From contig JANWJF010000001.1 of assembly GCA_025449535.1 (NCBI GenBank), positions 138,847 through 202,846 of the forward strand: a stretch of DNA of 64,000 nt, given 5' to 3'. Shown here piece by piece: positions 29,203-42,771 of the stretch. The DNA comes from Candidatus Saccharimonadia bacterium. GTDB lineage: Bacteria > Patescibacteriota > SICC01. The position numbers were made by a program, and so were the translations under genes. The notes beneath the pieces were generated by a model that did no database searches, was not told where the DNA came from, and saw only the letters and a program-made list of their open reading frames with translations. Position 1 is the first letter of the stretch, and every line of letters starts with the position of its first letter.

Positions 29203-29583
29203 ATGGCAAAGATAAACATTATCCTGGTAGAAGACGACTCCGTATTGGCGGAGATGTACGTCCAGAAGTTCACGCGCGAAGGGTTCGACGTCAGGCATGC
29301 GCTGGACGGTGACGAAGGTATCCGACTGGTTAAGGAGAAGCGGCCGGACCTGGTCCTCTTGGACATCATGATGCCCAAGAAGAGCGGCATCGAGGTACTC
29401 GAGGAACTCCGGAGTTCTTCGGAGACCAAGGGCGTGGCCGTGGTATTGCTTTCCAACGTCGGCGACCAGGAATACATCGACAAGGGCATGGCGCTCGGTG
29501 CCGTGGGATACCTCCTCAAGTCGAACTACACGCCCAGCGAGGTCGTCAGTAAGGTCCGCGAGATCCTGGCCGAGCGAGCTTAG
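29203..29583 (+). CDS. single-domain CheY-like response regulator
   Basis: receiver motifs (ILVEDD, LVLLDIMMP, LLSNV); start trimmed to internal ATG (MAKINI); ATG 9 nt upstream is equally possible. Confidence 0.8.
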   Translation: MAKINIILVEDDSVLAEMYVQKFTREGFDVRHALDGDEGIRLVKEKRPDLVLLDIMMPKKSGIEVLEELRSSSETKGVAVVLLSNVGDQEYIDKGMALGAVGYLLKSNYTPSEVVSKVREILAERA

Positions 29584-30672
29584 CGTTTCAGGCGCAGTTC
29601 CGCTTCCACGAAGTCGTCCAGATCGCCGTCCAGCACGGCGTCCGGGTCCTTGCGTTCGATGCCGGTCCGGAGGTCCTTCACCTGCTTGTACGGGTGCAGG
29701 ACGTACGAACGGATCTGGTTGCCCCACGCGGCGGTATCCCCTTTCTCGAGTTTCCGGAGGTCCGCCTTCTGCCGGGTCTCCGCCAGGGCGAGCAGCTTGC
29801 CATAGAGGATCTTCTTCGCGATCACCTTGTTCTGCATCTGGGATCGCTCGTTTTGCGATTGGGCGGTCAAGCCCGTCGGTACATGCGTCACCCGGACCGC
29901 GGAATCCGTCTTATTGACATGCTGTCCGCCGGCCCCTGACGCCCGGTACGTATCTATCCGCAGGTCCTTGTCGTCGAGTTCCACGTCCGTCTCCGGGAGG
30001 TCCGGTAGGACCTCGACCCGCGCGAACGAGGTCTGGCGCAAGCTTTTTGCGTTGAACGGGGATTGGCGCACCAACCGGTGCACCCCGGATTCGCCCCGAA
30101 GGTAACCGTAGGCGTACGGGCCGTCGACCCGGATCGTCACGCTCTTGATGCCGGCTTCCTCGCCCGTCGAACGTTCTTCGATCTCTGTGTGCCAGCCGCG
30201 CTGCTCGGCATACCGCAGGAACATCCGCTCCAGCTTCTCCGCCCAATCCTGGGCATCCGTGCCGCCGACGCCGGCCTGGATCGTGAGGTGGGCCGATTTC
30301 GGATCGTGTTCGCCGGCAAGCAGCGCTTTCGACTCGTGTTCGGTAAACGTTTCCTCGGCCTGCTCGAGACTGTCCGTGAGCTCTTGCTGGATGGATTCGT
30401 CCTGCTCCGCGAGCTGGAACAGCTCCGACAGGTCCTGGAGCTCGTGCTCGAAACGCTGCCAGAAAGCCACTTCTTCTTCCAAGGCGTTCAGGCGCTGCAT
30501 TACCGCGCGCGCCTCTTCCTGGTCCTTCCAGATGTCTTCCCGTTCGGACTGCTTCCTTAGGGTCGCAAGCTCGGCTTCTTTCTCCTCGAGGTCAAAGAAA
30601 CTCCTTCACCTGCGCGAAGCGCTTCGCCAGGCCGTCGATTCGTCCCTGTGACTCGTGCCAGTTTTCCACCAT
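29580..30672 (-). CDS. prfB: peptide chain release factor 2, with programmed +1 frameshift near 30592-30597
   Basis: frame 0 MVENWHESQGRIDGLAKRFAQVKEFL then in-frame TGA within AGGAG-TTT-CTT-TGA-C; +1 frame continues DLEEKEAELATL... into the track ORF carrying SGAGGQHVNKTDSAVR. Confidence 0.9.
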
Positions 30673-30730
30673 GGCCGCATTATACGCCAGCGGCACGCGC
30701 CTTTCGCGATGCGGATCGCGTCCCCATTTG

Positions 30731-30758
30731 AAAAAGGCCCCCTTTCGGGGACCTTTTT
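30731..30758 (-). terminator. intrinsic-terminator-like hairpin flanked by A/T runs
   Basis: aaaaaGGCCCCCtttcGGGGaCCttttt immediately downstream of the LPXTG-protein gene stop. Confidence 0.4.
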
Positions 30759-30781
30759 CGTTTACCGGCAAGCGGGTGGCC

Positions 30782-32503
30782 TTAGCCCTCTACCGATTGG
30801 CGACGGACCGCCTTCTTGAGCGCGTTCCGTTCCCGACGATACAGGTAGGTGCTGCCCGCGACGGCGGCCAGCGCCAGCGCCGCGGCGGCCGGAGTACCGG
30901 TCATCGGCAGCGCGCCCTTCACTTGGGCCTGCGGCGGGATCGGCTTCGGCGGAACCTTCTTCTGGATCCGCTGGTTACCGAACTTCAGCACGGCGGTACC
31001 GTTTTCCACCACTTCGGTCTGTTGGACCGTCTGGGTGGTCGGGTTGAATCCGCCCGGGACCTGTTCCTCGGCACGGTACGTGCCGGGTTGGAGGTCGCTC
31101 ATCAGGATCTCGCCGTTGCCGTCGGTCGAGTGCTGCGTGGCAGCTCCTGCGCCGTCCTGGTCGTCATCGGCGGATGCCGTGGCGATCGGGCTCGGTTCCG
31201 GGCTGTCGCTCGACTCCGGCGCCGGGGTGTCTTCGGTGAATTCCACGCCGACCGGGCCGACGAAGAACGTCACGTTACCCAGTCGCGGCTCGCCCGGATC
31301 TTCCGTACCGTTCCCGTTCAAGTCCTCGAACTTGACGATGAGGAGCTGGCCCTTCTTCGGCTTTACCGGAGGGGTGGGCGTTGGGGTCGGCGTCGGAGTC
31401 GGGGTCAGGGTCGGAGTCGGGGTGGGCGTAGGGGTCGGACTGGGGGTGGGCAGGCACGACTCGACCGTATCCCATAGCGGGTGGGTCTGGTCCGAGTCGA
31501 TGGAAGCCACGTTCTTCAGACACCCGACGCTGGCCGGCGTGTCGTCCTTGACCTTCACCTTGATCAGGATGTAGCCGACGCCGTTCGGCGCGACGTTCCC
31601 GAACTTGAGGCCGCCGTTGACGACGTTGTCATCGCACGGCTTCGGAGCCGTGTCCGCGCCAAGCAGCATCTTACAGCTGCCGGCGACGTACTGGGCTACC
31701 GGGGGCAGTGAGTCTCGCACCACCGCGTTCGTCATCGGGGCCTTGCCCTCGTTGGCGAAACGGATTTGGTACTCAAGCTCCTGTCCGGCGACGACCTGGT
31801 TCTTCTCGACCCAGGTGGTCTCCCCTACCTTCCGGACCTGCTTGTTGATCCGGGCGTGGGGTGCCTGGTTGACGTCGGCCATGAAGATGATCCGCTTGGC
31901 ATCCTGGAAGGAGGCTGGCAGTTCACCGTTCTGGGTCGGCTGGACGGTGAACACGAACGCGTCCGCCGTGTGGGCCGTGGTAATCCGACTGTCCGGGATG
32001 TTCACGAGCGGCCCCCAGTTGAAGTTGGGCTGGTTCGTGGGGTTCACCTTGTTGTCCTGGTATTGGACGTTCCGGACGTTGTTAATGTTGAACACGTTGC
32101 CGTTGGCCGAGACCAACGTCGTTGGATCGGTGGTCTTGTACGGGGCCCGGGACACGCCGTTGGCGGCGGTCACTTTGGCCGTGGCGGTCACGCTGGTGGC
32201 CGCTTTCTTAGGAATGGTGAACGTGATTTTGAAGTTCCGGGCCTTGTCTCCGGTCCGGTAGTCCTCGGTGTTATGCACCAGGGCCGCGAACTGGACCACG
32301 TTACCGTGCTGCACGTTGGTCGTGCCAGCGAAGTCGGTCGGGCTGCCGGGGCCGGTCACCAGACGCGAGCCATAGGCTACGTCCAGGGCCACGCCCGCTC
32401 CCGAGACCGCTTGGATCAGCGGCGTCAGCAGCAGCGCTGCGAGCATGAACGCGCCCGCGAAGAGTCGTTTCCTGCGCATGCGCAGGTTGAAAAGGTTCTG
32501 CAT
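30782..32503 (-). CDS. LPXTG-type cell-wall-anchored surface protein (PT-repeat linker, Cna-B/SpaA-like domain)
   Basis: signal peptide; PTPSPTPTPTPTPTLTPTPTPTPTPTPP linker; C-terminal LPMTG + hydrophobic stretch + basic tail. Confidence 0.8.
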   Translation of the reverse strand: MQNLFNLRMRRKRLFAGAFMLAALLLTPLIQAVSGAGVALDVAYGSRLVTGPGSPTDFAGTTNVQHGNVVQFAALVHNTEDYRTGDKARNFKITFTIPKKAATSVTATAKVTAANGVSRAPYKTTDPTTLVSANGNVFNINNVRNVQYQDNKVNPTNQPNFNWGPLVNIPDSRITTAHTADAFVFTVQPTQNGELPASFQDAKRIIFMADVNQAPHARINKQVRKVGETTWVEKNQVVAGQELEYQIRFANEGKAPMTNAVVRDSLPPVAQYVAGSCKMLLGADTAPKPCDDNVVNGGLKFGNVAPNGVGYILIKVKVKDDTPASVGCLKNVASIDSDQTHPLWDTVESCLPTPSPTPTPTPTPTLTPTPTPTPTPTPPVKPKKGQLLIVKFEDLNGNGTEDPGEPRLGNVTFFVGPVGVEFTEDTPAPESSDSPEPSPIATASADDDQDGAGAATQHSTDGNGEILMSDLQPGTYRAEEQVPGGFNPTTQTVQQTEVVENGTAVLKFGNQRIQKKVPPKPIPPQAQVKGALPMTGTPAAAALALAAVAGSTYLYRRERNALKKAVRRQSVEG

Positions 32504-32772
32504 AAGCTTCTCCTCTTAATTATTCGATTGATTGATACATCTAATGGTGAAAATCCGTCGTATCGTGTTGTTAAGCTTCGCAACCCGACCAATCAACCAG
32601 CATCAAGGGATGGGGCGGAGAGGAAGAACTGCTGTCGAGTGCGTGTGCACAAGGCATCTTCCTCTCCGCGTGACCATCATTCCCATTCCCTATTCCCTAC
32701 CGATCGACTCGTTGCCCGGAGGCGCGGAAGTGTATCGGGGGAGTACGGCAGCGACCTTCGGAGGAAGGGTTC

Positions 32773-33801
32773 TTAGAACCCGCCTGAGTCGCCTTCTCCT
32801 ACGTCACCGCTTTCGGTGGGCGGTTGTGAGGGAGGTGCCGCTTCGCCGCAGCCGCCGGTGCATGAGCCTGCCGGTGGTACTGCGCCTTCAGTGCCGCCTC
32901 CGCCGGTTCCCGGCTCGGGGGTGGCTTCGCCGGCAGGTGGGGGGTTGCCTCCTCCGCCCTCGATCTGGCGATGCGTGTTGCCGTGTTCGGAACCTTCCTG
33001 TTCCGGATGCGGGTCATCCTTGCCGATGTCGTCGTCGGTGACGACCGGATGGCGTTCTTCGGTTGGCGGGCCTTCGCGAGGCGGACCTTCGGACGGCGGG
33101 CCTTCGCGAGGCGGACCTTCGGACGGCGGTGAACCGACCGGGACCAGAACGGTGTTGGGATTTCCGCAACCGCCGCGAGTACTTGCCTCCTCCTTGACTT
33201 TCCGCTTGGTCTGTTCCTGCCCGTTCGGCATGGTGACTTTCCGCTCGCTCACGAACATGAACGAGATGTCGCCGGCGTCGACCTTGCGGCCTTCGTCGGT
33301 AAACGTCACCTGCCCGTTGGGCGCGGTATAGGAGGTGCCGAGCTGTTCCGCCGGGACCTTCATCTGGACCCGGACGAACCCTTCGCCGCGTTTGATGCGG
33401 TTCAGGTCGTGCTTGGAAACGTGTTCACCTACTGCGGCGAGATACGCCTGGGCGTCTTTCTCGCCGGACTGCAGCCAGGTCCGCAGCTCACCGACGGAGC
33501 GGATCGCTTCGTCGCTGACCGCGTTGCTGCCGGCCGTGAGGTTGGGCTTGATGCAGAGTCGGAAGCAATACTCCTTCCGCTGCCAACCCTGTTTCTTGAG
33601 CCAGGTCTGGGTGACCTTGCGCTCGGCCTTGCTGCTCCCGTCGTGGCCCTTGGGCACATCGGCGAGGCTCGTGGTTGCTTGGGTCTGTTCTGCCTTGGTG
33701 TCGTCGTCGGAGCCGCCTGCCTGCGTGAATGCCAGGACGGCGAGTGCCGCGACGGCAGCCAAGGCCAGAAGCGCCAAAAGGCGGTTCCGGTTGCGTGCCA
33801 T
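32773..33801 (-). CDS. secreted low-complexity protein with PPSEGPPREG repeats
   Basis: signal peptide (MARNRNRLLALLALAAVAALAVLAF); Gly/Pro/Glu-rich C-terminus. Confidence 0.6.
   Translation of the reverse strand: MARNRNRLLALLALAAVAALAVLAFTQAGGSDDDTKAEQTQATTSLADVPKGHDGSSKAERKVTQTWLKKQGWQRKEYCFRLCIKPNLTAGSNAVSDEAIRSVGELRTWLQSGEKDAQAYLAAVGEHVSKHDLNRIKRGEGFVRVQMKVPAEQLGTSYTAPNGQVTFTDEGRKVDAGDISFMFVSERKVTMPNGQEQTKRKVKEEASTRGGCGNPNTVLVPVGSPPSEGPPREGPPSEGPPREGPPTEERHPVVTDDDIGKDDPHPEQEGSEHGNTHRQIEGGGGNPPPAGEATPEPGTGGGGTEGAVPPAGSCTGGCGEAAPPSQPPTESGDVGEGDSGGF
33065..33124. repeat. perfect 2 x 30-bp tandem direct repeat inside the CDS
   Basis: ggcgggccttcgcgaggcggaccttcggac twice, encoding the PPSEGPPREG duplication. 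Confidence 0.8.
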
Positions 33802-33894
33802 CTTGATCGTCTCCTTAGTCGCTCCCTACGGGACTATCCCGTGCGGGACCTCGGCCGTGAACTCTTCACGGACGCGATCCCGCACTGGATAAAT

Positions 33895-33940
33895 AAAAAA
33901 CCAACCGTGCACACGAGTGCGTTTTTGGTTGGTTTGTTTT
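33895..33940 (-). terminator. terminator-like hairpin (CCAACC...GGTTGG) with A/T runs on both sides
   Basis: located in the 450-nt gap downstream of the 34250..34702 gene. Confidence 0.4.
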
Positions 33941-34249
33941 ATGCGATCGGAGTCACCGGGTTACCGGGATGGGTAATGATGGTTGATTGACCGGGTTGTT
34001 AACGTACCGCTTCGAATCTCTCCAAAGCCTGCCACCATATAGCACAATCTTCGCTTTGTCAAGCGTTTTTTGCCACTTCTTGCCTGCTCCGGGATGGGCA
34101 GGCAAGGGTTCATACTACCAAGCGTGCGTGCGTGCACAACAGCCAACGTCCCAAATGCGAACCGGGCCGCCATGAGAGTGATCTCAATAGCGGCCCGGCG
34201 TGGGCGTTCCTTGGATTTAACGTGAGCGGATGCCCGTGGCTCACGGCCG

Positions 34250-34702
34250 TCAACAGCCTCGCGATCCCCTGCGGGTGAACGTTCGGATGATGTCCCCATA
34301 GAGGACCTGCACGTACACGGCGCGGAAGAATCCGCAGCGATACTGACTGGTCCGGACGACCCGCACGAAGCGGCGGGCGGGGGTCCATGCGGTCCAGCGT
34401 GACGTCCGGAACGCTTCCTGCGTCCCTGCCCGGCGGTCGAAGACCGCAATCCGGGCCTGCCTGGTCCCGCATTCGCGCTCCACGAAGCCGAGTACCCCGA
34501 TGATCCGGAAGCGCGTCAGCGAACCGGGCGGTTCGGAGCGGAAGCCGCTGCCGAGCACGTTGAACGCCTGACGTTCGCACTCGGGCGAGGTCGGCACTGG
34601 TTCCGGAAAGGGCTCGGAAGCCGATCGGTGGGCGGAAGCCGTCGCGGCCAAGGCCAGGACGGAGACTGCGGTGATGAGCATCGTGATCCCAATCCGGCGC
34701 AT
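34250..34702 (-). CDS. small secreted hypothetical protein
   Basis: ORF track; signal peptide (MRRIGITMLITAVSVLALAATASA). Confidence 0.4.
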   Translation of the reverse strand: MRRIGITMLITAVSVLALAATASAHRSASEPFPEPVPTSPECERQAFNVLGSGFRSEPPGSLTRFRIIGVLGFVERECGTRQARIAVFDRRAGTQEAFRTSRWTAWTPARRFVRVVRTSQYRCGFFRAVYVQVLYGDIIRTFTRRGSRGC

Positions 34703-34910
34703 GGCGCGCCTCCCTTCGGGTCGTGTAACGGGTTGAAAAGGTCTGGAAACGTTGACGGTCTACAACCGTAACGCAGTCGGGCGGTGATAAAAAGGGTACT
34801 TTGCCGCAAACCGGCTTTCCAACGGTGGTGGGGTGCGGAGACGAACGATGTGTCAGCCAGAGGCTATCGTCGTCCGTCTCCGCGTATCCACCACTATCTG
34901 CTCAATCTCC

Positions 34911-35519
34911 TCAGAAAGGCGAGGGGTCGGGTTCTTGCAGTTGTTCTCGGAATGCCGGATCCCGCAGAGTCGAGTTGAGCCGTGCGACTGCACCGTGGTT
35001 CGAGCAGCCGGGGTATTCGAGAACCGGCTCGGAAGCCGAAGGCTGCGTCGGCACTGATTCGATCATGTCCAGCATGCGGTCGAAGATCTTCCGCAATTCG
35101 CGGCACGGATGCTCGTCGACTCCCCGGATGGTGATCGGGTAGTAGCACGAGGTCCGCACGTCGACGCACTGCCTCAGCTTAACCCGCAGGCGCGGGTCGG
35201 TCGCTCCTTCCATGAGGAAGTCGTTGACTTCCGGAAGGATCGCGAACATCGGTACGCGGATCCGGCTGCAAAACGGGTCGAACGTGTCGTCCCGGAACGT
35301 GAAGCAGCGGGACTTCTGACGGGGCGTCAGGTCCGAGTAGTCGATGCAATCGGGGCCGAAGCCCTCGCAGTTTCCCGTGATGATGGTCCCCGATTTGTAT
35401 TCGGAAAGCACCTGGGGAGTCGGGTACTTCTTCTCGTCTTTCTCCAGGACGACAGAGGCCCCCAAGGCCGCGATGAGGAGCAAAGCGAGTACTACTAGGG
35501 TCTTGTCCATTCGGGACAT
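34911..35519 (-). CDS. secreted/membrane-anchored Cys-rich hypothetical protein
   Basis: ORF track; N-terminal hydrophobic segment; ten Cys. Confidence 0.55.
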   Translation of the reverse strand: MSRMDKTLVVLALLLIAALGASVVLEKDEKKYPTPQVLSEYKSGTIITGNCEGFGPDCIDYSDLTPRQKSRCFTFRDDTFDPFCSRIRVPMFAILPEVNDFLMEGATDPRLRVKLRQCVDVRTSCYYPITIRGVDEHPCRELRKIFDRMLDMIESVPTQPSASEPVLEYPGCSNHGAVARLNSTLRDPAFREQLQEPDPSPF

Positions 35520-35620
35520 GCCATTCCCTTCGTTCGGATTTCAGAAACGGACCGCGGTACCGCGGACAGATAGTGGTGGTTGGAAAACCGGGTTGTCAAA
35601 GAGCTCGCCATCATAACACG

Positions 35621-35645
35621 AAAAACCCCTTGAAAAGGGGTTTTT
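35621..35645 (-). terminator. intrinsic terminator downstream of rplL (bidirectional hairpin)
   Basis: aaaaACCCCTTgaaaAGGGGTtttt about 20 nt after rplL stop. Confidence 0.5.
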
Positions 35646-35665
35646 CGCTTAGTAACGGCTATACG

Positions 35666-36181
35666 TTATTTCAGTTCGACGGTCGCGCCGGCGGCTTCGA
35701 GCTTCTTCTTGGCCTCTTCGGCGTCGTCCTTCGGCACGTCGGCCTTGACGTCCTTCGGGGCGCTTTCGACCAGCTCCTTGGCCTCGCCGAGGCCCAGGTC
35801 GGTCACCTCACGGACGGCCTTGATCACGTCGATCTTCTTGTCGCCCGTGGAAACCAGGTGGATCGTGTACGCGGACTTCTCGTCATCCCCGCCGCCGTCA
35901 CCACCGTCGCCGGCGGCCGGAGCGGCTCCCGCCACGGCGACCGGAGCCGCCGAGACGCCGAACTTGTCCTCGATCGCGGAGACCAGGTCGGCCACTTCCA
36001 ACACGGTCATCTTCTCGACTTGCTCGACGATCGCGTTGACCTCCTTGGAGTATTCCTTAGACGGCTTGTCGTCGGCCTTTGCTTCGGGTTTGTCGCCCTC
36101 GGCCGGCTTGTTATCGTCCTTCTTCTCTTCCGCAGCGTCTCCCTGCTGCTGATCGTCCTTCTTGGCATCTTCGTCCGCCAT
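35666..36181 (-). CDS. rplL: 50S ribosomal protein L7/L12 with ~45-aa acidic/Lys-rich N-terminal extension
   Basis: canonical L7/L12 core ([22 protein letters not shown]...[13 protein letters not shown]); GGAGG Shine-Dalgarno ~6 nt upstream of the extended ATG. Confidence 0.9.
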
Positions 36182-36250: not shown

Positions 36251-36766
36251 TTACGCCTTCTGCTCCTTTACCGCGGTCAGCGCGTATACCAGGTTGCGGG
36301 ATACGCCGGACAGGCCGCTCGCCAGGTTCCGGACCGGCGCGCTGATGCTGCCCATGAGCTTGGCCAGGAGTTCGTCGCGGCTCGGCAGGCTGGCCAGCTT
36401 GTCGATCACGCTGACTTCCACCGCTTCCCCGTCCACGAACCCGCCGGTGACCTCGAGCGCCTCGTGGTCCTTGGCGAACGTGTGCACGGCCTTGGCGACC
36501 GCCACCGGGTCCTCGAACCCGAACGCCACCGCCACCGGTCCGGTCGGTCGTTCCAGCTTCAGTCCGGCATCCTTCGCAGCCAGGGTGAACAACGTGTTCT
36601 TGACGACCTCGAACCGCATGCCGTTCTCCCGCAGGTTGCCCTGCAGTTCCTGTTGTTCACGCACGCCCAGGCCTTGGTAGTCGGCGAAGACGACCGCCTT
36701 CGCGTCCTTCAGCGCCTCGGTGAGGGCCTTGAGTACGACTTCCTTCTGATCGCGTGTCTTGGGCAT
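36251..36766 (-). CDS. rplJ: 50S ribosomal protein L10
   Basis: L10 signature (VVFADYQGLGVREQQELQGNLRENG). Confidence 0.9.
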   Translation of the reverse strand: MPKTRDQKEVVLKALTEALKDAKAVVFADYQGLGVREQQELQGNLRENGMRFEVVKNTLFTLAAKDAGLKLERPTGPVAVAFGFEDPVAVAKAVHTFAKDHEALEVTGGFVDGEAVEVSVIDKLASLPSRDELLAKLMGSISAPVRNLASGLSGVSRNLVYALTAVKEQKA

Positions 36767-36979
36767 ATAAAAATCCTTCGGTCGTCACCGAAGGTATACG
36801 TGAACACGAAGTGTCTCAGTATCTCCTGCGCAGCGGATTAAAGCGGTGCAAGCCTCCGGCTCGACTGACGCTGGCTGCGGTCTTCGGCGACAGATTTAAG
36901 TCTACGGAGCAAGTGGCAGTGTGGTCAAGTCCTAATTAATGGACGTACCGAGAATATGGTCCCGCGCCTGATTATCGAC

Positions 36980-37327
36980 CTAACCCTTCTGGCTGAATGG
37001 TTCAGCCCGCAGAACTTCAAGTCCGCGATGCTCGATTAACATCCCCGCCACGATGTGGCGCGACATGCTGTCACCCGCCAGAATGCGAACCTCGTACGTT
37101 CCATCTGGCTCTTGGACGGGTATTCCATCCGGAGCCACAAATACCGCACCCACAGTTTGTACCAGTTGGTCTGCGTGCCGCATCGCTTGAGGGGTATTTC
37201 GAATCGGCTCTGGCGATCGTACATAGAACGAGTAGCCGAGTAAATCATCCGGCAAAGATTTAATTTGGTCCAAGGTTAGGGGCGATCCTGGTTCACGTTC
37301 TTGGTCTTCACCATCAACTGAATGCAT
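36980..37327 (-). CDS. hypothetical protein
   Basis: ORF track only; sits in a locally lower-GC stretch between folA and rplJ. Confidence 0.35.
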   Translation of the reverse strand: MHSVDGEDQEREPGSPLTLDQIKSLPDDLLGYSFYVRSPEPIRNTPQAMRHADQLVQTVGAVFVAPDGIPVQEPDGTYEVRILAGDSMSRHIVAGMLIEHRGLEVLRAEPFSQKG

Positions 37328-37397
37328 ATTTACTCTCCGAGATTAGTAACCTGATAAATTAGCCTCAACTGAAAGCAAAGTCAAAAAAATATATTCT

Positions 37398-37901
37398 CTA
37401 CGATCGCTCGTAATCCACGAATCGGACGGTTTTACCGTCAGCGTCGAGCGTTTCCGAGCGAACCTCATGGAAACTCTCCGCAAACGTAGGAAAGAAGGTG
37501 TCGGCCTCGAATTTGCCGGACACGTGAGTGAGATATATTCGTTCGGTCTGCGGCAGCGCCAAGGCGTAAATTTCCGCACCACCGATTATGAATATTTCGT
37601 CGGCACCGGGCGCATCGGCGGCTGCGACGATGGCACCGTCCAGCGAATGCGTCACGACGCACCCCTCCGCCGTAAACTTCGAATCGCGCGTTATCACGAT
37701 GTTCGTCCGCTCCGGCAGCGGCCTCCCGATCGATTCCCAGGTCTTCCGGCCCATCACGATCGGGTGACCCGTCGTCAACGCCTTGAAGCGCTTGAGGTCG
37801 GCCGGGATATGCCAAGGGATCGCGCCGTCCTTGCCGATGCCGCGGTCATCGTCCATGGCCACGATCAAGCTGATCCTCGGATTGTTTGGCTGCCCGATCA
37901 C
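37398..37901 (-). CDS. folA: dihydrofolate reductase
   Basis: ISLIVAMDDDRGIGKDGAIPWHIPADLKRFKALT, MGRKTWESIG. Confidence 0.9.
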   Translation of the reverse strand: MIGQPNNPRISLIVAMDDDRGIGKDGAIPWHIPADLKRFKALTTGHPIVMGRKTWESIGRPLPERTNIVITRDSKFTAEGCVVTHSLDGAIVAAADAPGADEIFIIGGAEIYALALPQTERIYLTHVSGKFEADTFFPTFAESFHEVRSETLDADGKTVRFVDYERS

Positions 37902-38884
37902 CGTTTCATGAAGGCGCGGCGGTCCTTCTCTTGGAAACCGCCGGCGACGGTCAGTTCGCCCTTGATCATCGGATGCGGGTCGTATCCCTCGATGGTGAAG
38001 TGTTCGGCTTTGACGTCATCGAGTTCCTTCAGCTTCGGGTCTATCTTGAGCTGCGGGAATGCCCGGGGCTTCCGGGATAGCTGTTCCTTCACTTGGCCTA
38101 CGTGGTTCAGGTAGATGTGCGCATCCCCGAACGTATGCACGAACTCCCCCGGCTGCAGCCCGGCCAAGTGGGCCATTACCTGCGTGAGCATCGCGTAACT
38201 GGCGATATTGAACGGCACCCCCAGGAACATGTCCGCGCTCCGCTGGTAGAGCTGGCAGGAAAGCTTGCCGTCGATGACCTGGAAGTGGAAGAAAATGTGG
38301 CACAGTGGGAAACTGAGCGCCTCGCCGGGCAGCGCCATCGAGTACAGGTGTTCCGGGTTCCAGACGGTGACTACGGAATGCTTGCGCTGCGGGTAGTTCC
38401 GGATGTTATCGAGCGCCCAGGCGATCTGGTCGATCGAACCGCCCTTCGTTCGCGGCCAGCTACGCCATTGGGAACCGTAGATGTGCGGCAACTCACCGAA
38501 TCGCTTGGCGAACTTCGCGTCGTCCGCGATCCGCTGTATGAATTCTTCCTTGCTGAGTTTCGGCACCTTCCCCGCTTCGGCAAGCTTCACATAGTCCTTA
38601 TAGGGATAGTCGTCCCAAATGTGGACGTTGTTATCGACCAGGTACTTGATGTTGGACTGGCCCGTCAGGAACCAGACCAACTCGTGAAGCACGCCGTTCC
38701 AGTAGACCTTCTTGGTGGTCAACAAGGGGAAGCCCTGGCCGAGGTCGAACCGAATCTGCCGGCCGAATACGCTCGTCAACCCGTTGCCGGTATTGTGATC
38801 CTTCTTTTCGGACCCGTTCTCCAGGATGTCCTGCAGCAGGTCGAGGTACTGGTACTCGGTATGACGGAGGTTTTCTTTCGGCAT
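37898..38884 (-). CDS. thyA: thymidylate synthase (ThyA type)
   Basis: active-site region FPLCHIFFHFQV...LSCQLYQRSADMFLGVPFNIASYA; 328 aa, longer than the typical ~264 aa form. Confidence 0.9.
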   Translation of the reverse strand: MPKENLRHTEYQYLDLLQDILENGSEKKDHNTGNGLTSVFGRQIRFDLGQGFPLLTTKKVYWNGVLHELVWFLTGQSNIKYLVDNNVHIWDDYPYKDYVKLAEAGKVPKLSKEEFIQRIADDAKFAKRFGELPHIYGSQWRSWPRTKGGSIDQIAWALDNIRNYPQRKHSVVTVWNPEHLYSMALPGEALSFPLCHIFFHFQVIDGKLSCQLYQRSADMFLGVPFNIASYAMLTQVMAHLAGLQPGEFVHTFGDAHIYLNHVGQVKEQLSRKPRAFPQLKIDPKLKELDDVKAEHFTIEGYDPHPMIKGELTVAGGFQEKDRRAFMKR

Positions 38885-38886
38885 GA

Positions 38887-39576
38887 TTACTCAATCGTGA
38901 ACGTCTTCTCAGTTCGATAATATTCCGGCCAGTGCTCGTTGTAATGCTTAAACATCCGGCCGACGCGTTCCTGCGAGAGCTCCTCGAACCCGAGGGACAC
39001 CAGTTCCGCGAGGATGTCCCTCCGGGCCGTTTCCGCCTCCTTGGAACTCGGCACGACCTTCTCGATCTCGGCGACGTATCCGTATCCCGCGTTCCGGTCG
39101 ACGCATACGGTGTAGTCCTTGTAGGCGTACTCGACACGTTCGCGCGACCATTTGGACAGGAAATCGTAGCCGGCGGAACGGATCGCTTCGTCCAGCGTAT
39201 CGATGTCCGGCGCGGTGGCCCCATACTCCCCTTCCAGCCGCTCGAGGGCATGCTGGTCGTCGCCGTCACCTTTCGCCGCTTTGATTACCAGCAGGATTCG
39301 TCCGTCGGCGTCACGGGTCCGGAGCGCGTACGATTTCGCTTGGTCGAGTACCTGCTTGAATGCGGCCAAGTCGCCGTCGCTCAGGAACCCGCTCACGGCC
39401 CTGGCGACCTTGTCCTTGTCGCCGTTCGAATCGAAGTAATGGTTGAGCTGGTTCGACCGGGCCGCTTCCTTGAGGCCAGCGTCCGCTTGCTTTAGCTTGG
39501 CGACGAAATCATCCGCCGCACCCTTACTACCGAGCAGCGTCTTCACTTCGACTTCGTATTGGTTTGCGGTGGACAT
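38887..39576 (-). CDS. CYTH-like (triphosphate tunnel metalloenzyme) domain protein
   Basis: N-terminal YEVEVK (ExExK-like) and C-terminal GYGYVAEIEKVV; assignment tentative. Confidence 0.5.
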   Translation of the reverse strand: MSTANQYEVEVKTLLGSKGAADDFVAKLKQADAGLKEAARSNQLNHYFDSNGDKDKVARAVSGFLSDGDLAAFKQVLDQAKSYALRTRDADGRILLVIKAAKGDGDDQHALERLEGEYGATAPDIDTLDEAIRSAGYDFLSKWSRERVEYAYKDYTVCVDRNAGYGYVAEIEKVVPSSKEAETARRDILAELVSLGFEELSQERVGRMFKHYNEHWPEYYRTEKTFTIE

Positions 39577-40274
39577 CAGCGGACGGTGATTTTCTTAGGA
39601 GGCTTGGCCGGACTGAGCCTCTTCAGCTTTTCCTTTACGGCTTTCTTTTGCTTAGCGGACTTTGCCGTTTCCTCGAAGATCTTGCTGGCACCGGGCGCGG
39701 TGGTGCCGGCGTACTTGTTGGTCTTCTTCTTGAAATACGGGATCTCGGCCGGCGTGGTGAGCTGCTCGAAGCTGAGCTGGCAGAATCGCATCGTCGGGTA
39801 CAGCAGTACCGGAATCATCCCGATGTTCGTGATCTCCAAGGTGATGTTGCCCTTGTAGCCCGCGTCGATGTGCCCGGCCGTGGAGTGAATCACGATGCCG
39901 AGCCGGCCCAGCGAGGACTTTCCCTCGATCCGGGCACAGATGTCGTCCGGCAACTCGACGTACTCGTGCGTCAGGCCCAGGGCGAACTCGCCGGGGTGCA
40001 GGACGAAGGCCCTCGGCCCCTTCGGCAGGTGCGGCAGGAGCGGCTGTTCCTCGGCGGCCGCGGCGATGTCGGTCGGCTCGGTGATGCCGTCGAACGTGTT
40101 CGGATCGCGCGGGTCGATGTACGGCGTCGAGGCCTGCTTGAAGACACGGAACTTGGAGGACAGCCGCAGGTCGATGCTGCAGGAACCGAGGGCCTCGGCG
40201 TAGTCCGCCGCGGGTTCGATCTTTATCCGTCCGGCCGCGATCTGCTTCTTGATGTCTCGGTCGGAGAGAATCAT
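39576..40274 (-). CDS. dcd: dCTP deaminase with Lys-rich C-terminal tail
   Basis: MILSDRDIKKQIAAGRIKIEP N-terminus and dUTPase-like fold; roughly 45 extra Lys-rich residues at the C-terminus. Confidence 0.85.
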   Translation of the reverse strand: MILSDRDIKKQIAAGRIKIEPAADYAEALGSCSIDLRLSSKFRVFKQASTPYIDPRDPNTFDGITEPTDIAAAAEEQPLLPHLPKGPRAFVLHPGEFALGLTHEYVELPDDICARIEGKSSLGRLGIVIHSTAGHIDAGYKGNITLEITNIGMIPVLLYPTMRFCQLSFEQLTTPAEIPYFKKKTNKYAGTTAPGASKIFEETAKSAKQKKAVKEKLKRLSPAKPPKKITVR

Positions 40275-41125
40275 TTCGCCGCCGCGGTTATCGTGTCAGG
40301 ATTCACCCGGACGCCCGGCCCCATCGTCGAGGCCAGCGTGACGCTCCGGATATACGTCCCCTTGGCGTCGGACGGCTTGGCGGACCGGACGGCCTGGAAG
40401 TACGTCGCCACGTTCTTGGCGAGATCCTCCGGCTTGAACGAGGCCTTCCCGACCCCGGCGTGGATGGTCGCGTCCTTGGCGACCCGGAACTCGATGGTAC
40501 CGGCCTTCACCTTCTTGATCGCGTCCTCCACGTCCTCGGCGACGGTGCCGCTCTTCGGGTTCGGCATCAGGCCCTTCGGCCCCAGGATTTGGCCGAGCTT
40601 GCCGACCTCGGCCATCTGGTCCGGCGTGGCCACGGCCACGTCGAAACCGGCCCAGCCGTCCTTGAGCTTCTTAAGCGTCGCCTCGTCCGAGACGAAGTCC
40701 GCGCCGGCCTTCTTGGCGGCGGCGGCTTTGCCGGACGATACGAACGCCATCACCTTCACCGCCTTGCCGGTACCGGCCGGCAGCTGCACGGTCCCGCGGA
40801 CGCTCTGCTCCGCCTCACGGGCGTCGATGCCGAGCCGGATGTGCATCTCGACGGTCCCGTCGAACGCGGTCGTGCTGGTCTTCTGAACGAGCGCCACCGC
40901 CTCGTCGAGACCGTACTGCTTGCCGCTCTCGACCTGTTCCGCCGCGGCTCGGTAGCGCTTGCCGCGGAATTGTTCGCCGGGCTTATGCTGCGGCGCGCTC
41001 GCGGCCTTGCCGGAAGCCTTCACGGCCTTCTTGGGCGCGGGCTTGGCGACAGCTTTGGTCGCTGGCTGAGCTTTTTCCGAAGCCGCAAGCGGCTTCTTGT
41101 CTTCGGTTGTCTTGGCTTCTGTCAT
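40271..41125 (-). CDS. rplA: 50S ribosomal protein L1 with ~55-aa Lys/Ala/Pro-rich N-terminal extension
   Basis: L1 core from GKRYRAAAEQV...IDAREAEQSVRGTVQLPAGTG; no in-frame start codon near the canonical N-terminus. Confidence 0.9.
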   Translation of the reverse strand: MTEAKTTEDKKPLAASEKAQPATKAVAKPAPKKAVKASGKAASAPQHKPGEQFRGKRYRAAAEQVESGKQYGLDEAVALVQKTSTTAFDGTVEMHIRLGIDAREAEQSVRGTVQLPAGTGKAVKVMAFVSSGKAAAAKKAGADFVSDEATLKKLKDGWAGFDVAVATPDQMAEVGKLGQILGPKGLMPNPKSGTVAEDVEDAIKKVKAGTIEFRVAKDATIHAGVGKASFKPEDLAKNVATYFQAVRSAKPSDAKGTYIRSVTLASTMGPGVRVNPDTITAAAK

Positions 41126-41221
41126 GATCGGTTACGGTCCCAGCGCCCCTGGCGGAGCTCCCGCGGTTACTTCTAACAGTCTACCCGAATGCGCTCGTCG
41201 GGTTCTCCCCAGGTGGGGATG

Positions 41222-41647
41222 TTATTTCTCGACGGTAACGCCCATCGACCGGGCCGTCCCGGCGATGATCTTCTTGGCCGCCTCGAGGTCGTTCGCCGAG
41301 AGGTCTTCCATCTTCTCCTTGGCGATCTCCTCGAGCTGCGATTCCTTAATCTTGGCGACCTTGTTCTTGAGCGCGTTGTCGCTGCCCTTGCCGAGCCCGA
41401 TCGCCTTCTTGATCAGGATCGCGGCCGGCGGCGTCTTGGTGATGAACGTGAACGTCCGGTCCTCGAAGATCGTCATCTCCACCGGGACGATCGTGTCGCC
41501 CATCTGCTTGGTCTGGTCGTTGAACGCCTTGCAGAAGTCCATGATCTGGATGCCGTGCGGCCCCAGGGCGGTACCCACCGGCGGGGCAGGATTCGCCTTC
41601 CCGGCCGGGATCTGCAGTTTCACAACGGTCAGTACTTTCTTAGCCAT
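41222..41647 (-). CDS. rplK: 50S ribosomal protein L11
   Basis: [32 protein letters not shown]. Confidence 0.95.
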
Positions 41648-41930
41648 GGTTCCTCATTCCCTTATGCATACGGACCTCCCGGAGCGTAGTCGATGCCCGC
41701 GACCGTACTCAAGCCGTCGGGTTCATCGTAGTCATCTGACGATCCTTCGACCTCGTCGACCTCGGTCCCGACGGCTTCCGCGCCTTCCACCGGATCGGCA
41801 CCCGGTTCCACGGACTTCAACGGCGGTTGGCCGCCTTCGACCCGACGGCTGAGCGGTCCAAGTGTGCTACTAAGCAAGCCGTTCTCGACTTGATGGGCCA
41901 ACCCCTTGCTCAACCCTTCCCCGCCGTCGC

Positions 41931-42476
41931 TCATATCTTCCTCACTTGCAGGAAGTCGAGCTCGACCGGTGTCTCCCGGCCGAACATGTTCACCAGCACC
42001 TTGATCTTGCCCTTGGACTTGTCGACGTCGTCCACCTGGCCGTCGAAGTCCTTGAACGGCCCGTCGACGATGTTGACCGTCTCGCCCTTCTCCAGGTCGA
42101 CTTCGTAGGTCGGCTCCTCGACGCCCATGCGCTGCTTGATCGTCTTCACCTCTTCCTCGCTCATCGGGGTCGGCGTGGTGCCGCTGCCGATGAACCCGGT
42201 CACGTTGGGCGTGTTCCGCACCACGAACCAGGAATCGTCGGTGACGATCATGTTCACGAGGACGTAGCCCGGGAAGATCTTCTTGTCGACCGTCTTGCGC
42301 TTGCCGTGCTTGATCTCGATCTGCTTCTCGGTCGGCACGATCACGTCGAAGATCTTATCGGCCATGTCCATGGACTCAATCCGCTGGCGGAGGTTCTCCG
42401 CCACCCGGTCCTCGTACCCGGAGTAGGTATGGATCGCGTACCATTGGCGTTCGGTGGATGCGGTTTGTCGTGGCAT
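41931..42476 (-). CDS. nusG: transcription termination/antitermination factor NusG
   Basis: NGN domain (WYAIHTYSGYEDRV) and KOW (VNIVDGPFKDFDGQV). Confidence 0.95.
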   Translation of the reverse strand: MPRQTASTERQWYAIHTYSGYEDRVAENLRQRIESMDMADKIFDVIVPTEKQIEIKHGKRKTVDKKIFPGYVLVNMIVTDDSWFVVRNTPNVTGFIGSGTTPTPMSEEEVKTIKQRMGVEEPTYEVDLEKGETVNIVDGPFKDFDGQVDDVDKSKGKIKVLVNMFGRETPVELDFLQVRKI

Positions 42477-42492: not shown

Positions 42493-42771
42493 TTACTTGG
42501 TCGGTTGCGGGACCTGCACCGGCGCGGCCTGTTCGCCGCCGGTCGGGGCCTGGATCGGCTGGGCGTCCTTGACGCCGCCGCCGTCGGTGGCGTCCAGCAC
42601 GGCCTGGAGTCCTTCGTTGAGGCCGTAGTCGACGACGCCCATGAACGCCCCGAACAGGATCGTCACGATCACGACGATCGTGGTGAGCCGGAGCGTCCGG
42701 CTACGCGAAGGCCAGGTGACCTTGCTGAGCTCGGCCCGGACTTCTTTAAGAAACGAAAAAATCTTTCGCAC
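42493..42771 (-). CDS. secE: preprotein translocase subunit SecE
   Basis: FLKEVRAELSKVTWPSR + single TM; GTG start chosen because the longer track ORF runs across murB in another frame. Confidence 0.75.
   Translation of the reverse strand: MRKIFSFLKEVRAELSKVTWPSRSRTLRLTTIVVIVTILFGAFMGVVDYGLNEGLQAVLDATDGGGVKDAQPIQAPTGGEQAAPVQVPQPTK

What the first reader, a model, noticed from the sequence alone, without database searches (positions are those of the whole stretch)
36980..40274. Thymidylate-synthesis genes (dcd, CYTH-like, thyA, folA) sit between rplJL and rplKA
Reading the minus strand, the order is nusG-secE ... rplK-rplA-dcd-CYTH-thyA-folA-hypothetical-rplJ-rplL, with 0-4 nt overlaps from rplA through folA (rplA/dcd, dcd/CYTH, thyA/folA), implying co-transcription of dTMP-synthesis genes with ribosomal proteins L11/L1. 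In many bacteria rplKAJL are contiguous; the short hypothetical gene next to rplJ is in a lower-GC stretch.
Basis: partly seen in the sequence, partly recalled or inferred. Interest (0 to 1): 0.45.

Follow-up and report, generated by a model that had tools for sequence, protein, structure and literature searches.

The report
Thymidylate genes chained to ribosomal-protein operon
In this tiny-genome (Patescibacteria) bacterium, four DNA-precursor genes, one of them an uncharacterised triphosphate-cleaving enzyme, sit inside the L11/L1–L10/L12 ribosomal-protein cluster; the layout is old and widespread in the group, not a local oddity.

Summary
On the minus strand the order is secE-nusG-ORF90-rplK-rplA-dcd-CYTH-thyA-folA-ORF115-rplJ-rplL. 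The junctions are 4 nt overlap, 1 nt overlap, 2 nt gap and 4 nt overlap.

It is not specific to this genome. Four other members of its Patescibacteria clade share the order. In about 80 diverse CPR metagenome loci, the CYTH gene nearly always lies beside dcd, thyA and folA. That cluster usually follows nusG-rplK.

Co-transcription with rplKA is plausible in this clade: junctions are tight and I found no terminator or conserved promoter. A covarying L1-binding-type RNA motif sits just before rplA. rplJL is a separate unit, with its own conserved promoter and an L10-leader attenuator that scores below the Rfam threshold. ORF115 is a low-GC3 ORFan absent from relatives.

The most interesting part is the CYTH protein, a conserved, undescribed member of the CPR thymidylate module. 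Most partner Dcd enzymes carry Asn at the dUTPase catalytic Asp. Loci with a Dut-like gene plus dCMP deaminase lack CYTH. I therefore propose it hydrolyses dUTP, or a related deoxypyrimidine triphosphate. This is inferred, not shown (about 0.35).

The parts
42493..42771 (-). secE (92 aa), start of the conserved secE-nusG-rplK block
   Evidence: Called gene with PF00584 in the identical contigs L002/L003. Coordinates were mapped to the window.
41931..42476 (-). nusG
   Evidence: PF02357 at 108.6 bits.
41662..41934 (-). ORF90, a small variable ORF. Its ATG overlaps the nusG stop (ATGA). It may or may not be a real gene.
   Evidence: No Pfam or NCBIfam match. Every clade member has a different, non-alignable small ORF at this position. 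GC3 is 0.68.
41222..41647 (-). rplK (L11)
   Evidence: PF03946 plus PF00298.
41134..41164 (-). L1-binding-type mRNA motif, GCGG|GAG|hairpin|..GA|CCGU, ending 8 nt before the rplA ATG
   Evidence: Conserved before rplA in 9 loci. The stem pair covaries as CG:4, UA:4, GC:1, and GGGAG is invariant. Its position matches the L1-interacting RNA placed between rplK and rplA in PMC3616713. No Rfam model matched.
40271..41125 (-). rplA (L1), with an Ala/Lys/Pro-rich N-terminal extension of about 50 aa
   Evidence: TIGR01169 at 294.6 bits over residues 54-276.
39576..40274 (-). dcd, a dCTP deaminase. Its start overlaps the rplA stop by 4 nt. It has a Lys-rich C-terminal tail.
   Evidence: TIGR02274 at 191.3 bits against a cut-off of 92.8. 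The best solved relative is M. tuberculosis Dcd:dut, 2qxx, at 148 bits. Ser/Arg/Asp/Glu are all present.
38887..39576 (-). CYTH / triphosphate-tunnel-metalloenzyme family protein (229 aa). It is the conserved but functionally unassigned member of the thymidylate module.
   Evidence: PF01928 at 55.6 bits. ExExK and the tunnel Arg/Lys/Glu residues are invariant in 22 homologues. The AF2 model has pLDDT 88.5. Foldseek top hits are SaTTM, Pfu 1yem and YpAC-IV.
37898..38884 (-). thyA (thymidylate synthase, 328 aa)
   Evidence: TIGR03284 at 383.5 bits.
37398..37901 (-). folA (dihydrofolate reductase). Its GTG start overlaps the thyA stop.
   Evidence: PF00186 at 192.7 bits, residues 10-166.
37356..37384 (-). 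Promoter-like TTGACT-N17-TAATTT in a 30% GC spacer ahead of ORF115
   Evidence: Pattern scan; coordinates; spacer GC.
36980..37327 (-). ORF115, a species-specific ORFan insertion (or a spurious ORF)
   Evidence: Its only match among 5.8 billion proteins is itself. It is absent from L001, L007, L089 and L090. GC3 is 0.50.
36899..36928 (-). rplJ promoter-like site, TTGACC-N18-TAGACT
   Evidence: Promoter scan. Both hexamers are conserved at the same place in L001, L007, L089 and L090.
36759..36905 (-). L10 leader. The terminator / SD-sequestering hairpin lies at 36775-36794, followed by a U-run. The alternative antiterminator pairs 36874-36891 with the 5' arm.
   Evidence: RF00557 at 30.2 bits, E 0.0075, matching model positions 1-138. 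The antiterminator helix covaries as AU:3, GC:2. Compensatory changes in the terminator arms can be read.
36251..36766 (-). rplJ (L10)
   Evidence: PF00466 at 83.5 bits.
35666..36181 (-). rplL (L7/L12), with a charged N-terminal extension of about 45 aa. A terminator-like hairpin follows at 35626-35639.
   Evidence: PF16320 plus PF00542; terminator-like site.

Best explanation
This is a lineage-conserved Patescibacteria 'super-operon'. A thymidylate module (dcd, a CYTH-family triphosphate-tunnel enzyme, thyA, folA) was fixed long ago next to secE-nusG-rplK-rplA. In this clade it lies between rplA and rplJ.

**Shown.**
- Gene identities and the tight or overlapping junctions.
- Conservation of the order in the clade.
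- CPR-wide linkage of CYTH with dcd, thyA and folA, and of that cluster with nusG-rplK.
- A covarying L1-site-like RNA directly before rplA.
- A conserved promoter plus L10-leader switch before rplJ.

**Inferred.**
- rplK-rplA-dcd-CYTH-thyA-folA are read from one transcript and translated in a chain. L1 feedback at the rplA start would then also damp dTMP-precursor synthesis, at least through dcd.
- rplJL is controlled separately. The L10(L12)4 complex would bind the leader and favour a hairpin that both terminates transcription and hides the Shine-Dalgarno sequence.

**Pathway.** Dcd converts dCTP to dUTP (or to dUMP). The CYTH enzyme is proposed to hydrolyse dUTP, or a related deoxypyrimidine triphosphate, to feed ThyA. 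ThyA converts dUMP to dTMP. FolA recycles dihydrofolate.

ORF115 is a later, compositionally foreign insertion between folA and the rplJ promoter.
For: **Architecture.**
- Gene calls, junctions and signals.
- Clade conservation of the full order in L001, L007, L089 and L090.
- CPR-wide synteny from 80 CYTH-anchored loci, which fall into 45 clusters at 70% identity. thyA was near CYTH in 32/32 loci, dcd in 31/32, folA in 29/32. nusG-rplK lay upstream in 28/37.
- Further neighbours are SHMT, FolD, Tmk, RNR and Ham1.

**Regulatory RNAs.**
- L1 motif.
- L10 leader.
- Native composition of the four genes, GC3 0.76-0.88.

**CYTH role.**
- It looks like an active enzyme. The catalytic ExExK and tunnel residues are invariant, and the fold is confidently TTM.
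- In 50 of 65 CYTH-linked Dcd ORFs, the Asp equivalent to the Dut catalytic Asp is Asn, while the deaminase Ser/Arg/Glu residues are kept. All 50 are encoded immediately downstream of CYTH.
- The D->N change leaves Dut practically inactive (PMC5519681). Those clusters should therefore make dUTP and need a hydrolase.
- Syntenic or similar thymidylate clusters that carry a DCD-fold Dut-like gene (Asp kept, Glu->Pro), two of them (L092, L095) also with dCMP deaminase, have no CYTH. These are L092, L094, L095 and L096.
Against: - No expression data exist, so co-transcription and coupling are inferred from spacing only.
- A weak promoter-like match, CTGACA-18-AATGAT, overlaps the rplA/dcd junction.
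- The window's own Dcd keeps the Asp and is most similar to the bifunctional M. tuberculosis enzyme. It may make dUMP directly, which would make a separate dUTPase unnecessary here.
- Two loci, L089 (same clade) and L023, carry both CYTH and a Dut-like gene.
- Known TTM hydrolases usually cleave the gamma phosphate, which would give dUDP, not dUMP (own knowledge).
- Genome-wide presence or absence of dut could not be tested.
- In most Parcubacteria the cluster is not co-oriented with rplK. Linkage to ribosomal genes there cannot mean co-transcription.
Confidence: 0.6

Rival explanations
1. The linkage is passive synteny in streamlined genomes. The thymidylate genes merely ended up packed against rplA. 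They are expressed from their own internal promoter and are not regulated with L11/L1.
For: - A 9/12 promoter-like match lies at 40299-40270, at the rplA/dcd junction.
- In most Parcubacteria loci the cluster is divergent from folA or separated from rplK by opposite-strand genes, so it must have its own promoter.
- Promoter consensus in CPR is poorly known.
Against: - The promoter-like match is at chance level: 4 found against 1.6 +/- 1.3 expected. It is not conserved as TTGAC-N17-19-TAnnnT, which in this 7-kb stretch occurs only before ORF115 and rplJ.
- The overlapping or few-nt rplA/dcd junction is kept in L001, L090, L089 and L008.
- Adjacency to nusG-rplK persists across CYTH proteins only 40-46% identical. 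That is hard to explain without selection.
Confidence: 0.25
2. The CYTH gene is unrelated to thymidylate metabolism. It would be a class IV (CyaB-type) adenylate cyclase, or a generic inorganic triphosphatase that happens to be linked.
For: - Source annotations call it 'predicted adenylyl cyclase CyaB'.
- Foldseek hits include YpAC-IV, and also SaTTM bound to triphosphate.
- L089 and L023 already have a Dut-like gene.
Against: - TIGR00318 cyaB scores 32.3 bits against a cut-off of 57.95.
- Adjacency to thyA in 32/32 evaluable loci, across 45 clusters at 70% identity, is not expected for a housekeeping PPPase or a signalling cyclase. The pair persists in Gracilibacteria and Absconditicoccaceae, where dcd and the ribosomal genes are gone.
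- A family-specific C-terminal extension rich in invariant aromatic residues suggests an organic substrate, not an inorganic one.
Confidence: 0.2
3. The four genes are a recent horizontally acquired island that split rplKAJL in this genome.
For: - ORF115 and its spacer are compositionally foreign.
- thyA, dcd and folA alleles are discordant with ribosomal-protein relatedness.
- thyA transfer into Patescibacteria has been reported (PMC12455944).
Against: - The order is shared by clade members whose L1 is only 65-67% identical to the window's, and the module is CPR-wide.
- GC3 of the four genes (0.76-0.88) matches neighbours.
- Allele discordance indicates in-situ replacement within a fixed layout, not a new insertion.
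Confidence: 0.03

Closest known systems
E. coli secE-nusG / rplKA / rplJL-rpoBC cluster with L1 and L10(L12)4 autogenous control
   Same: - Same gene backbone: secE-nusG-rplK-rplA ... rplJ-rplL.
- rplKA and rplJL are separate regulatory units.
- An L1-site-like RNA and an L10 leader are both present.
   Different: - Four thymidylate-pathway genes and an ORFan lie between rplA and rplJ.
- The L1 site lies before rplA, as in Actinobacteria, Cyanobacteria and Chloroflexi (PMC3616713), not before rplK.
- rpoBC does not follow rplL in the window.
Bacillus subtilis rplJL leader transcription attenuation (L10 leader, Rfam RF00557)
   Same: The leader shows a full-length match to the model. It has an intrinsic-terminator hairpin plus U-run just before rplJ. 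An alternative antiterminator pairing is supported by covariation.
   Different: - It scores below Rfam's gathering threshold (30.2 against 44).
- Relatives were not detected by cmscan at all.
- The terminator 3' arm also contains the Shine-Dalgarno sequence and ends 8 nt before the ATG. Control may therefore be translational as well.
- The mechanism in B. subtilis is cited from my own knowledge (Yakhnin et al. 2015).
Ribosomal-protein operons that carry non-ribosomal genes (spc operon with secY-adk-map; alpha operon with rpoA)
   Same: Housekeeping non-ribosomal genes are embedded and co-oriented within a ribosomal-protein transcription unit. This comparison rests on my own knowledge.
   Different: Here the passengers are a complete dUMP-to-dTMP and folate-recycling module, chained to rplA by overlapping start and stop codons. 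I found no description of this arrangement.
Triphosphate tunnel metalloenzymes (CYTH): SaTTM, P. furiosus 1yem / PH1819, Y. pestis CyaB, mammalian ThTPase
   Same: ExExK motif, basic/acidic tunnel residues and beta-barrel fold.
   Different: - Only 15-21% identical to any solved member.
- Below the cyaB equivalog cut-off.
- Carries a helical insertion of about 60 residues and a conserved aromatic C-terminal extension.
- Forms a distinct family of about 130 clusters at E<=1e-30.
- Its genomic context (thymidylate synthesis) is not reported for any TTM in the literature searched.
dUTPase-superfamily routes to dUMP: Dut, monofunctional Dcd, bifunctional Dcd:dut (M. tuberculosis, M. jannaschii)
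   Same: The window Dcd has all conserved residues and is closest to Mtb Dcd:dut. The proposed CYTH role equals the Dut step.
   Different: - CYTH has an unrelated fold, so it would be a non-orthologous replacement, not a member.
- Most CYTH-linked Dcds carry Asn at the hydrolytic Asp.
- CPR also has a DCD-fold Dut-like family with Glu->Pro, annotated as 'dCTP deaminase'.

Membership tests
CYTH / triphosphate tunnel metalloenzyme superfamily (PF01928) | Profile match above the curated threshold | tested here: met
   55.6 bits against a gathering score of 23.2.
CYTH / triphosphate tunnel metalloenzyme superfamily (PF01928) | N-terminal ExExK motif, plus conserved Arg/Lys and Glu/Asp residues lining the tunnel | tested here: met
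   E8, E10, K12, R86, R88, K99, R113, E115, E170 and E172 are invariant in 22 homologues of 42-100% identity.
CYTH / triphosphate tunnel metalloenzyme superfamily (PF01928) | Eight-stranded beta-barrel tunnel fold | tested here: met
   AF2 model pLDDT 88.5, pTM 0.82. Foldseek probability is 1.00 to SaTTM 7nsd, 1yem, 2fjt and ThTPase.
Class IV adenylate cyclase CyaB (TIGR00318 equivalog) | Score at or above the equivalog cut-off | tested here: not met
   32.3 bits against a cut-off of 57.95.
dUTP diphosphatase (Dut, dUTPase superfamily), considered only as a functional analogue of the CYTH protein | dUTPase jelly-roll fold with motifs I-V | tested here: not met
   The CYTH protein has a TTM fold. 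Any dUTPase activity would be non-orthologous.
dUTP diphosphatase (Dut, dUTPase superfamily), considered only as a functional analogue of the CYTH protein | Hydrolysis of dUTP to dUMP + PPi | not testable with these tools
   Only context evidence is available: Dcd D->N variants next to CYTH, and absence of CYTH where a Dut-like gene is present.
dCTP deaminase (TIGR02274) | Equivalog score and the catalytic Ser/Arg/Glu residues | tested here: met
   191.3 bits against 92.8. Ser, Arg and Glu align with the E. coli and Mtb residues.
Bifunctional dCTP deaminase:dUTPase (Mtb / M. jannaschii type) | dUMP-forming activity. No agreed sequence signature was available here. | tested here: inconclusive
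   The best solved relative is Mtb Dcd:dut at 148 bits, against E. coli Dcd at 118 bits. The motif HSTAGHIDAGYKG resembles the Mtb and Mj enzymes. The monofunctional E. coli enzyme also keeps the Asp.
Thymidylate synthase ThyA (TIGR03284) | Equivalog score | tested here: met
   383.5 bits against 108.35.
Dihydrofolate reductase (PF00186) | Profile match over the full domain | tested here: met
   192.7 bits, profile positions 2-159 of 159.
L10 leader (Rfam RF00557) | Covariance-model score at or above the gathering threshold | tested here: not met
   30.2 bits against 44, E 0.0075 in a 901-nt search. Relatives were not detected.
L10 leader (Rfam RF00557) | Located in the rplJ 5' leader, with a conserved core and a terminator/antiterminator supported by covariation | tested here: met
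   Full-length model alignment 1-138. The core GUCGCCRAAGACCGCAGC...CUUAAUCCGCUGCGCAGGAG is conserved in 5 genomes. Helix pairs carry compensatory changes.
L10 leader (Rfam RF00557) | Binding of L10(L12)4 to a kink-turn mimic of 23S rRNA | not testable with these tools
   Needs binding assays.
L1-interacting autoregulatory mRNA (Fu et al. 2013, PMC3616713) | Directly precedes rplA (or rplK). Short stem interrupted by a conserved bulge. | tested here: met
   The motif lies 8 nt upstream of the rplA ATG. GGGAG is invariant. The stem covaries as CG:4, UA:4, GC:1 across 9 loci.
L1-interacting autoregulatory mRNA (Fu et al. 2013, PMC3616713) | nM binding of L1 and translational repression | not testable with these tools
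   Needs filter-binding, toeprint or reporter assays.

The most novel reading that the evidence does not exclude
The CPR-wide CYTH family is a previously unrecognised deoxyuridine (deoxypyrimidine) triphosphate hydrolase. It would be a triphosphate-tunnel enzyme that non-orthologously replaces Dut and supplies dUMP to ThyA. It would work with a Dcd lineage that has lost the hydrolytic Asp. In the window's clade, the whole dTMP module would additionally be slaved to ribosome assembly, through L1 autogenous translational control passed on by start/stop-overlap coupling.
Probability: 0.3. Interest if true: 0.65.

Novelty: new variant of a known kind. Interest (0 to 1): 0.45.

Why it matters
- Patescibacteria/CPR make up a large share of bacterial diversity, cannot make nucleotides de novo, and are mostly uncultured. 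Knowing how they make dTMP matters for understanding their dependence on hosts.
- The analysis assigns a pathway context to a conserved protein family that databases label 'CYTH domain protein' or 'predicted adenylyl cyclase'. It gives a directly testable activity: dUTP or deoxypyrimidine-triphosphate hydrolysis.
- It flags that many CPR genes annotated 'dCTP deaminase' fall into three functionally different classes:
  - Asp/Glu intact.
  - Asp->Asn, probably deaminase only.
  - Glu->Pro, probably dUTPase only.
- It extends two ribosomal autoregulatory RNAs (L1 site, L10 leader) into CPR, where the Rfam gathering-threshold scan of this window reported neither and no Rfam model matched the L1 site.
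- It offers a simple natural case in which DNA-precursor synthesis may be coupled to ribosomal-protein feedback.

Tried and rejected
- **Genome-collection scan with the single L1 protein.** It returned only one relative, because the exact-peptide patterns were too strict. An rplA-anchored census of the lineage was therefore not possible, and synteny statistics are CYTH-anchored.
- **cmscan of four relatives.** It missed the L10 leader, although the sequences plainly contain it.
- **Rfam scan of the nusG-rplK-rplA region.** It gave only noise hits.
- **Informative domain fusions of the CYTH family.** None were found.
- **ORF115.** No Pfam or NCBIfam family and no homologue.
- **Literature searches** for CYTH with thyA, dcd, CPR or dUTP. 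Nothing relevant was found.
- **Test for a separate Dut in the window's genome.** I searched with the clade's Dut-like protein. None of the top 120 hits carried the genome's contig signature. With 1227 hits and only 120 listed, this is inconclusive. The 64-kb window itself has no second dUTPase-superfamily gene.
- **Rejected: the module as a recent island** (native GC3, deep conservation).
- **Rejected: CYTH as CyaB** (below cut-off, wrong context).
- **Rejected: the shorter 154-aa folA start** used by NCBI, because the DHFR profile begins at residue 10 of the 167-aa form.

Full report
**1. The observation.**

| Gene | Coordinates | Note |
|---|---|---|
| nusG | 41931-42476 | |
| rplK | 41222-41647 | |
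| rplA | 40271-41125 | |
| dcd | 39576-40274 | TIGR02274, 191 bits |
| CYTH-domain gene | 38887-39576 | PF01928, 55.6 bits |
| thyA | 37898-38884 | TIGR03284, 383 bits |
| folA | 37398-37901 | DHFR_1, 193 bits |
| ORF115 | 36980-37327 | no family match |
| rplJ | 36251-36766 | |
| rplL | 35666-36181 | |

- The junctions read AAATGA (rplA/dcd, 4-nt overlap), TGATG (dcd/CYTH, 1 nt), TAA-TC-ATG (CYTH/thyA, 2-nt gap) and GTGA (thyA/folA, 4 nt).
- The low-GC stretch is real. ORF115 has GC3 0.50, against 0.76-0.91 for its neighbours.

**2. Source and relatives.**

- Exact look-up of the CYTH protein places the window in a Patescibacteria MAG. The records are GCA_036560925.1, a JGI contig of 681 kb and another assembly of 813 kb.
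- A related MAG, L001, has L1 at 93% identity and the same order, but lacks ORF115 and ORF90.
- Three more distant clade members (L007, L089, L090; CYTH 51-63% identical, L1 65-81%) also have murB-secE-nusG-rplK-rplA-dcd-CYTH-thyA-folA-rplJ-rplL.

**3. The wider lineage.**

- A profile of 22 CYTH homologues was scanned against metagenome contigs. It gave 526 relatives, and the best 80 loci were kept. Together with three CYTH loci fetched by exact look-up, they yielded 79 full-length CYTH ORFs in 45 clusters at 70% identity.
- The loci were annotated with the window's proteins. Among 32 loci with at least 2.5 kb on both sides, thyA lies within 2.5 kb in 32, a dcd-like gene in 31 and folA in 29.
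- nusG-rplK lies within about 4 kb upstream in 28 of 37 loci. rplA was found in only 8 of 37. Many Parcubacteria are known to lack L1 (own knowledge; Brown et al. 2015).
- rplJ follows the cluster in only 1 of 33 loci.
- The commonest pattern is nusG rplK | folA(-) | CYTH dcd thyA. SHMT often follows, and FolD, Tmk, RNR or Ham1 are sometimes nearby.
- In Gracilibacteria and Absconditicoccaceae the pair thyA-CYTH persists with folA, but without dcd and away from ribosomal genes.
- The placement of a thymidylate module next to nusG-rplK(-rplA) is therefore ancient and widespread. What is specific to the window's clade is that rplJL still follows directly and that the module is co-oriented and fused to rplA.

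**4. Transcription units.**

- On the coding strand between rplK and rplJ, the terminator scan finds only the hairpin just before rplJ. The only promoter-like match at rplA/dcd is a chance-level 9/12 hit.
- A stricter TTGAC-N17-19-TAnnnT pattern occurs twice in 7 kb, before ORF115 and before rplJ.
- The rplA/dcd junction is overlapping, or separated by 1-6 nt, in L001, L090, L089, L007 and L008.
- I infer that rplK through folA is one transcript with chained translation. This is not shown.

**5. An L1-type site before rplA.**

- The 96-nt rplK-rplA spacer contains GCGG-GAG-hairpin-..GA-CCGU at 41134-41164.
- The same motif precedes rplA in eight other loci, including distant Parcubacteria. GGGAG is invariant and the closing stem covaries as CG:4, UA:4, GC:1.
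- This matches the published description of the L1-interacting RNA, which lies between rplK and rplA in Actinobacteria, Cyanobacteria and Chloroflexi (PMC3616713). No Rfam model reports it.
- If L1 represses rplA initiation here, dcd, whose ATG overlaps the rplA stop, should fall with it. That is inference.

**6. The L10 leader.**

- A sensitive Rfam scan finds RF00557 at 36759-36905. It scores 30.2 bits (gathering score 44), E 0.0075, and matches the full-length model.
- The rplJ upstream regions of L001, L007, L089 and L090 share four elements with the window: the -35/-10 hexamers; the core GUCGCCRAAGACCGCAGC ... CUUAAUCCGCUGCGCAGGAG; a variable hairpin; and a GC-rich hairpin followed by U6.
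- RNAalifold pairs the 5' core with the 5' arm of that hairpin, forming an antiterminator. It shows compensatory AU/GC changes, and the CGCAGC/GCUGCG helix also covaries.
- The terminator arms change in step, CUUCGG/CCGAAG against CUUUGG/CCAAAG.
- The 3' arm contains the Shine-Dalgarno sequence. rplJL is thus an independently regulated unit, as in other bacteria.

**7. ORF115.** It has no family match and no homologue among 5.8 billion proteins. It is absent from all relatives. It has foreign composition and its own promoter-like element in a 30% GC spacer. It is a recent insertion or a spurious ORF.

**8. The CYTH protein.**

- It is a bona fide TTM. ExExK and the tunnel residues are invariant. 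The model is confident, and Foldseek top hits are SaTTM, 1yem, CyaB and ThTPase.
- It falls below the cyaB equivalog cut-off.
- It belongs to a compact family: 129 clusters at E<=1e-30 among 1.84 billion representatives. No fusions were found.
- No literature links it to thymidylate metabolism or to CPR.

**9. What it may do.**

- The only step missing from the cluster is dUTP -> dUMP.
- The Dcd-like partners fall into classes:
  - 50 of 65 have Asn in place of the Asp that aligns with the Dut catalytic Asp, and keep the deaminase Ser/Arg/Glu. All 50 are encoded just downstream of CYTH.
  - The window's clade keeps Asp.
- Asp->Asn leaves Dut practically inactive (PMC5519681).
- CPR also has a large DCD-fold family with Asp kept but Glu->Pro. 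It is probably a dUTPase, yet sits exactly at the TIGR02274 cut-off and is therefore named 'dCTP deaminase'.
- Thymidylate clusters containing this Dut-like gene have no CYTH-profile hit. Two of them also carry dCMP deaminase, and three carry Tmk. These are L092, L094, L095 and L096; L092 and L095 lie in the same SIMPL-nusG-rplK ... SHMT-ArgRS-IleRS neighbourhood as the CYTH locus L087.
- This either/or pattern supports CYTH(+Dcd) as an alternative dUMP-supply module.
- Counter-evidence:
  - L089 and L023 have both genes.
  - The window's Dcd resembles the bifunctional Mtb enzyme.
  - TTM hydrolases usually release orthophosphate (own knowledge).
- I put the dUTP or deoxypyrimidine-triphosphate hydrolase reading at about 0.35.

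**10. Verdict.**

- The arrangement is a conserved lineage trait, not a local rearrangement, so its surprise value is moderate.
- The added value lies in three things: the functional lead for an uncharacterised CPR enzyme family, the three-way split of 'dCTP deaminase' annotations, and two ribosomal regulatory RNAs that the Rfam gathering-threshold scan of this window did not report.

Noticed in passing
window 37898-38884 (thyA), also dcd and folA; loci L001, L090, L007, L008, L089: The alleles are discordant with genome relatedness. The window's ThyA is 80-83% identical to ThyA of distant clade members (L007/L008/L089). It is only 59-60% identical to that of its nearest relatives (L001, L090), which are 78% identical to each other. 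Yet rplK, rplA and rplJ are 93-96% identical to L001. CYTH is 83% to L001, but dcd and folA are only about 60%. This suggests repeated in-situ replacement of thymidylate genes within a fixed gene order.
   Followed up: partly
L089 5043-5705; L023 67-717; L092-L096: A large CPR family (>1200 hits) of DCD-fold proteins keeps the hydrolytic Asp but has Pro in place of the deaminase Glu (..GIIDAGYxG..LPI..). It scores exactly at the TIGR02274 cut-off and is annotated 'dCTP deaminase', but is more likely a dUTPase.
   Followed up: partly
window 30591-30597 (-), within prfB 29580-30771: Classical RF2 programmed +1 frameshift site, AGGAG-UUU-CUU-UGA-C. One gene caller splits the gene into 59-aa and 306-aa ORFs, and another joins them.
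   Followed up: yes
window 41662-41934 (-) and the same position in L001, L007, L089, L090: Every clade member has a small ORF whose ATG overlaps the nusG stop (ATGA). The ORFs are not alignable with one another: 90 aa and acidic here, 124 aa in L001, two lipoprotein-like 24-aa peptides in L089, and none in L008.
   Followed up: partly
window rplA 40976-41125, rplL 36047-36181, dcd 39576-39680: Low-complexity charged extensions occur on L1 (N-terminal, about 50 aa, Ala/Lys/Pro-rich), L7/L12 (N-terminal, about 45 aa, Asp/Lys/Glu-rich, with a good GGAGG Shine-Dalgarno) and Dcd (C-terminal, about 35 aa, Lys-rich). NCBI and JGI callers disagree on the rplL and folA starts.
   Followed up: no
window 29500-35660 (-): rpoB/rpoC do not follow rplL. 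A terminator-like hairpin (35626-35639) comes first, then four proteins with no family match or only adhesin-like domains (202, 150, 342 and 573 aa), then prfB. rpoBC was not among the largest ORFs of the window, the only ones I checked.
   Followed up: partly
L087 9448-10001 and many Parcubacteria loci: folA and CYTH are divergently transcribed, with only about 46 bp between their start codons. This implies a very compact bidirectional promoter region.
   Followed up: no
L090 7666-8363: In one clade member, a NUDIX hydrolase gene and a 76-aa ORF are inserted between rplK and rplA. The L1-type motif is retained directly before rplA.
   Followed up: no
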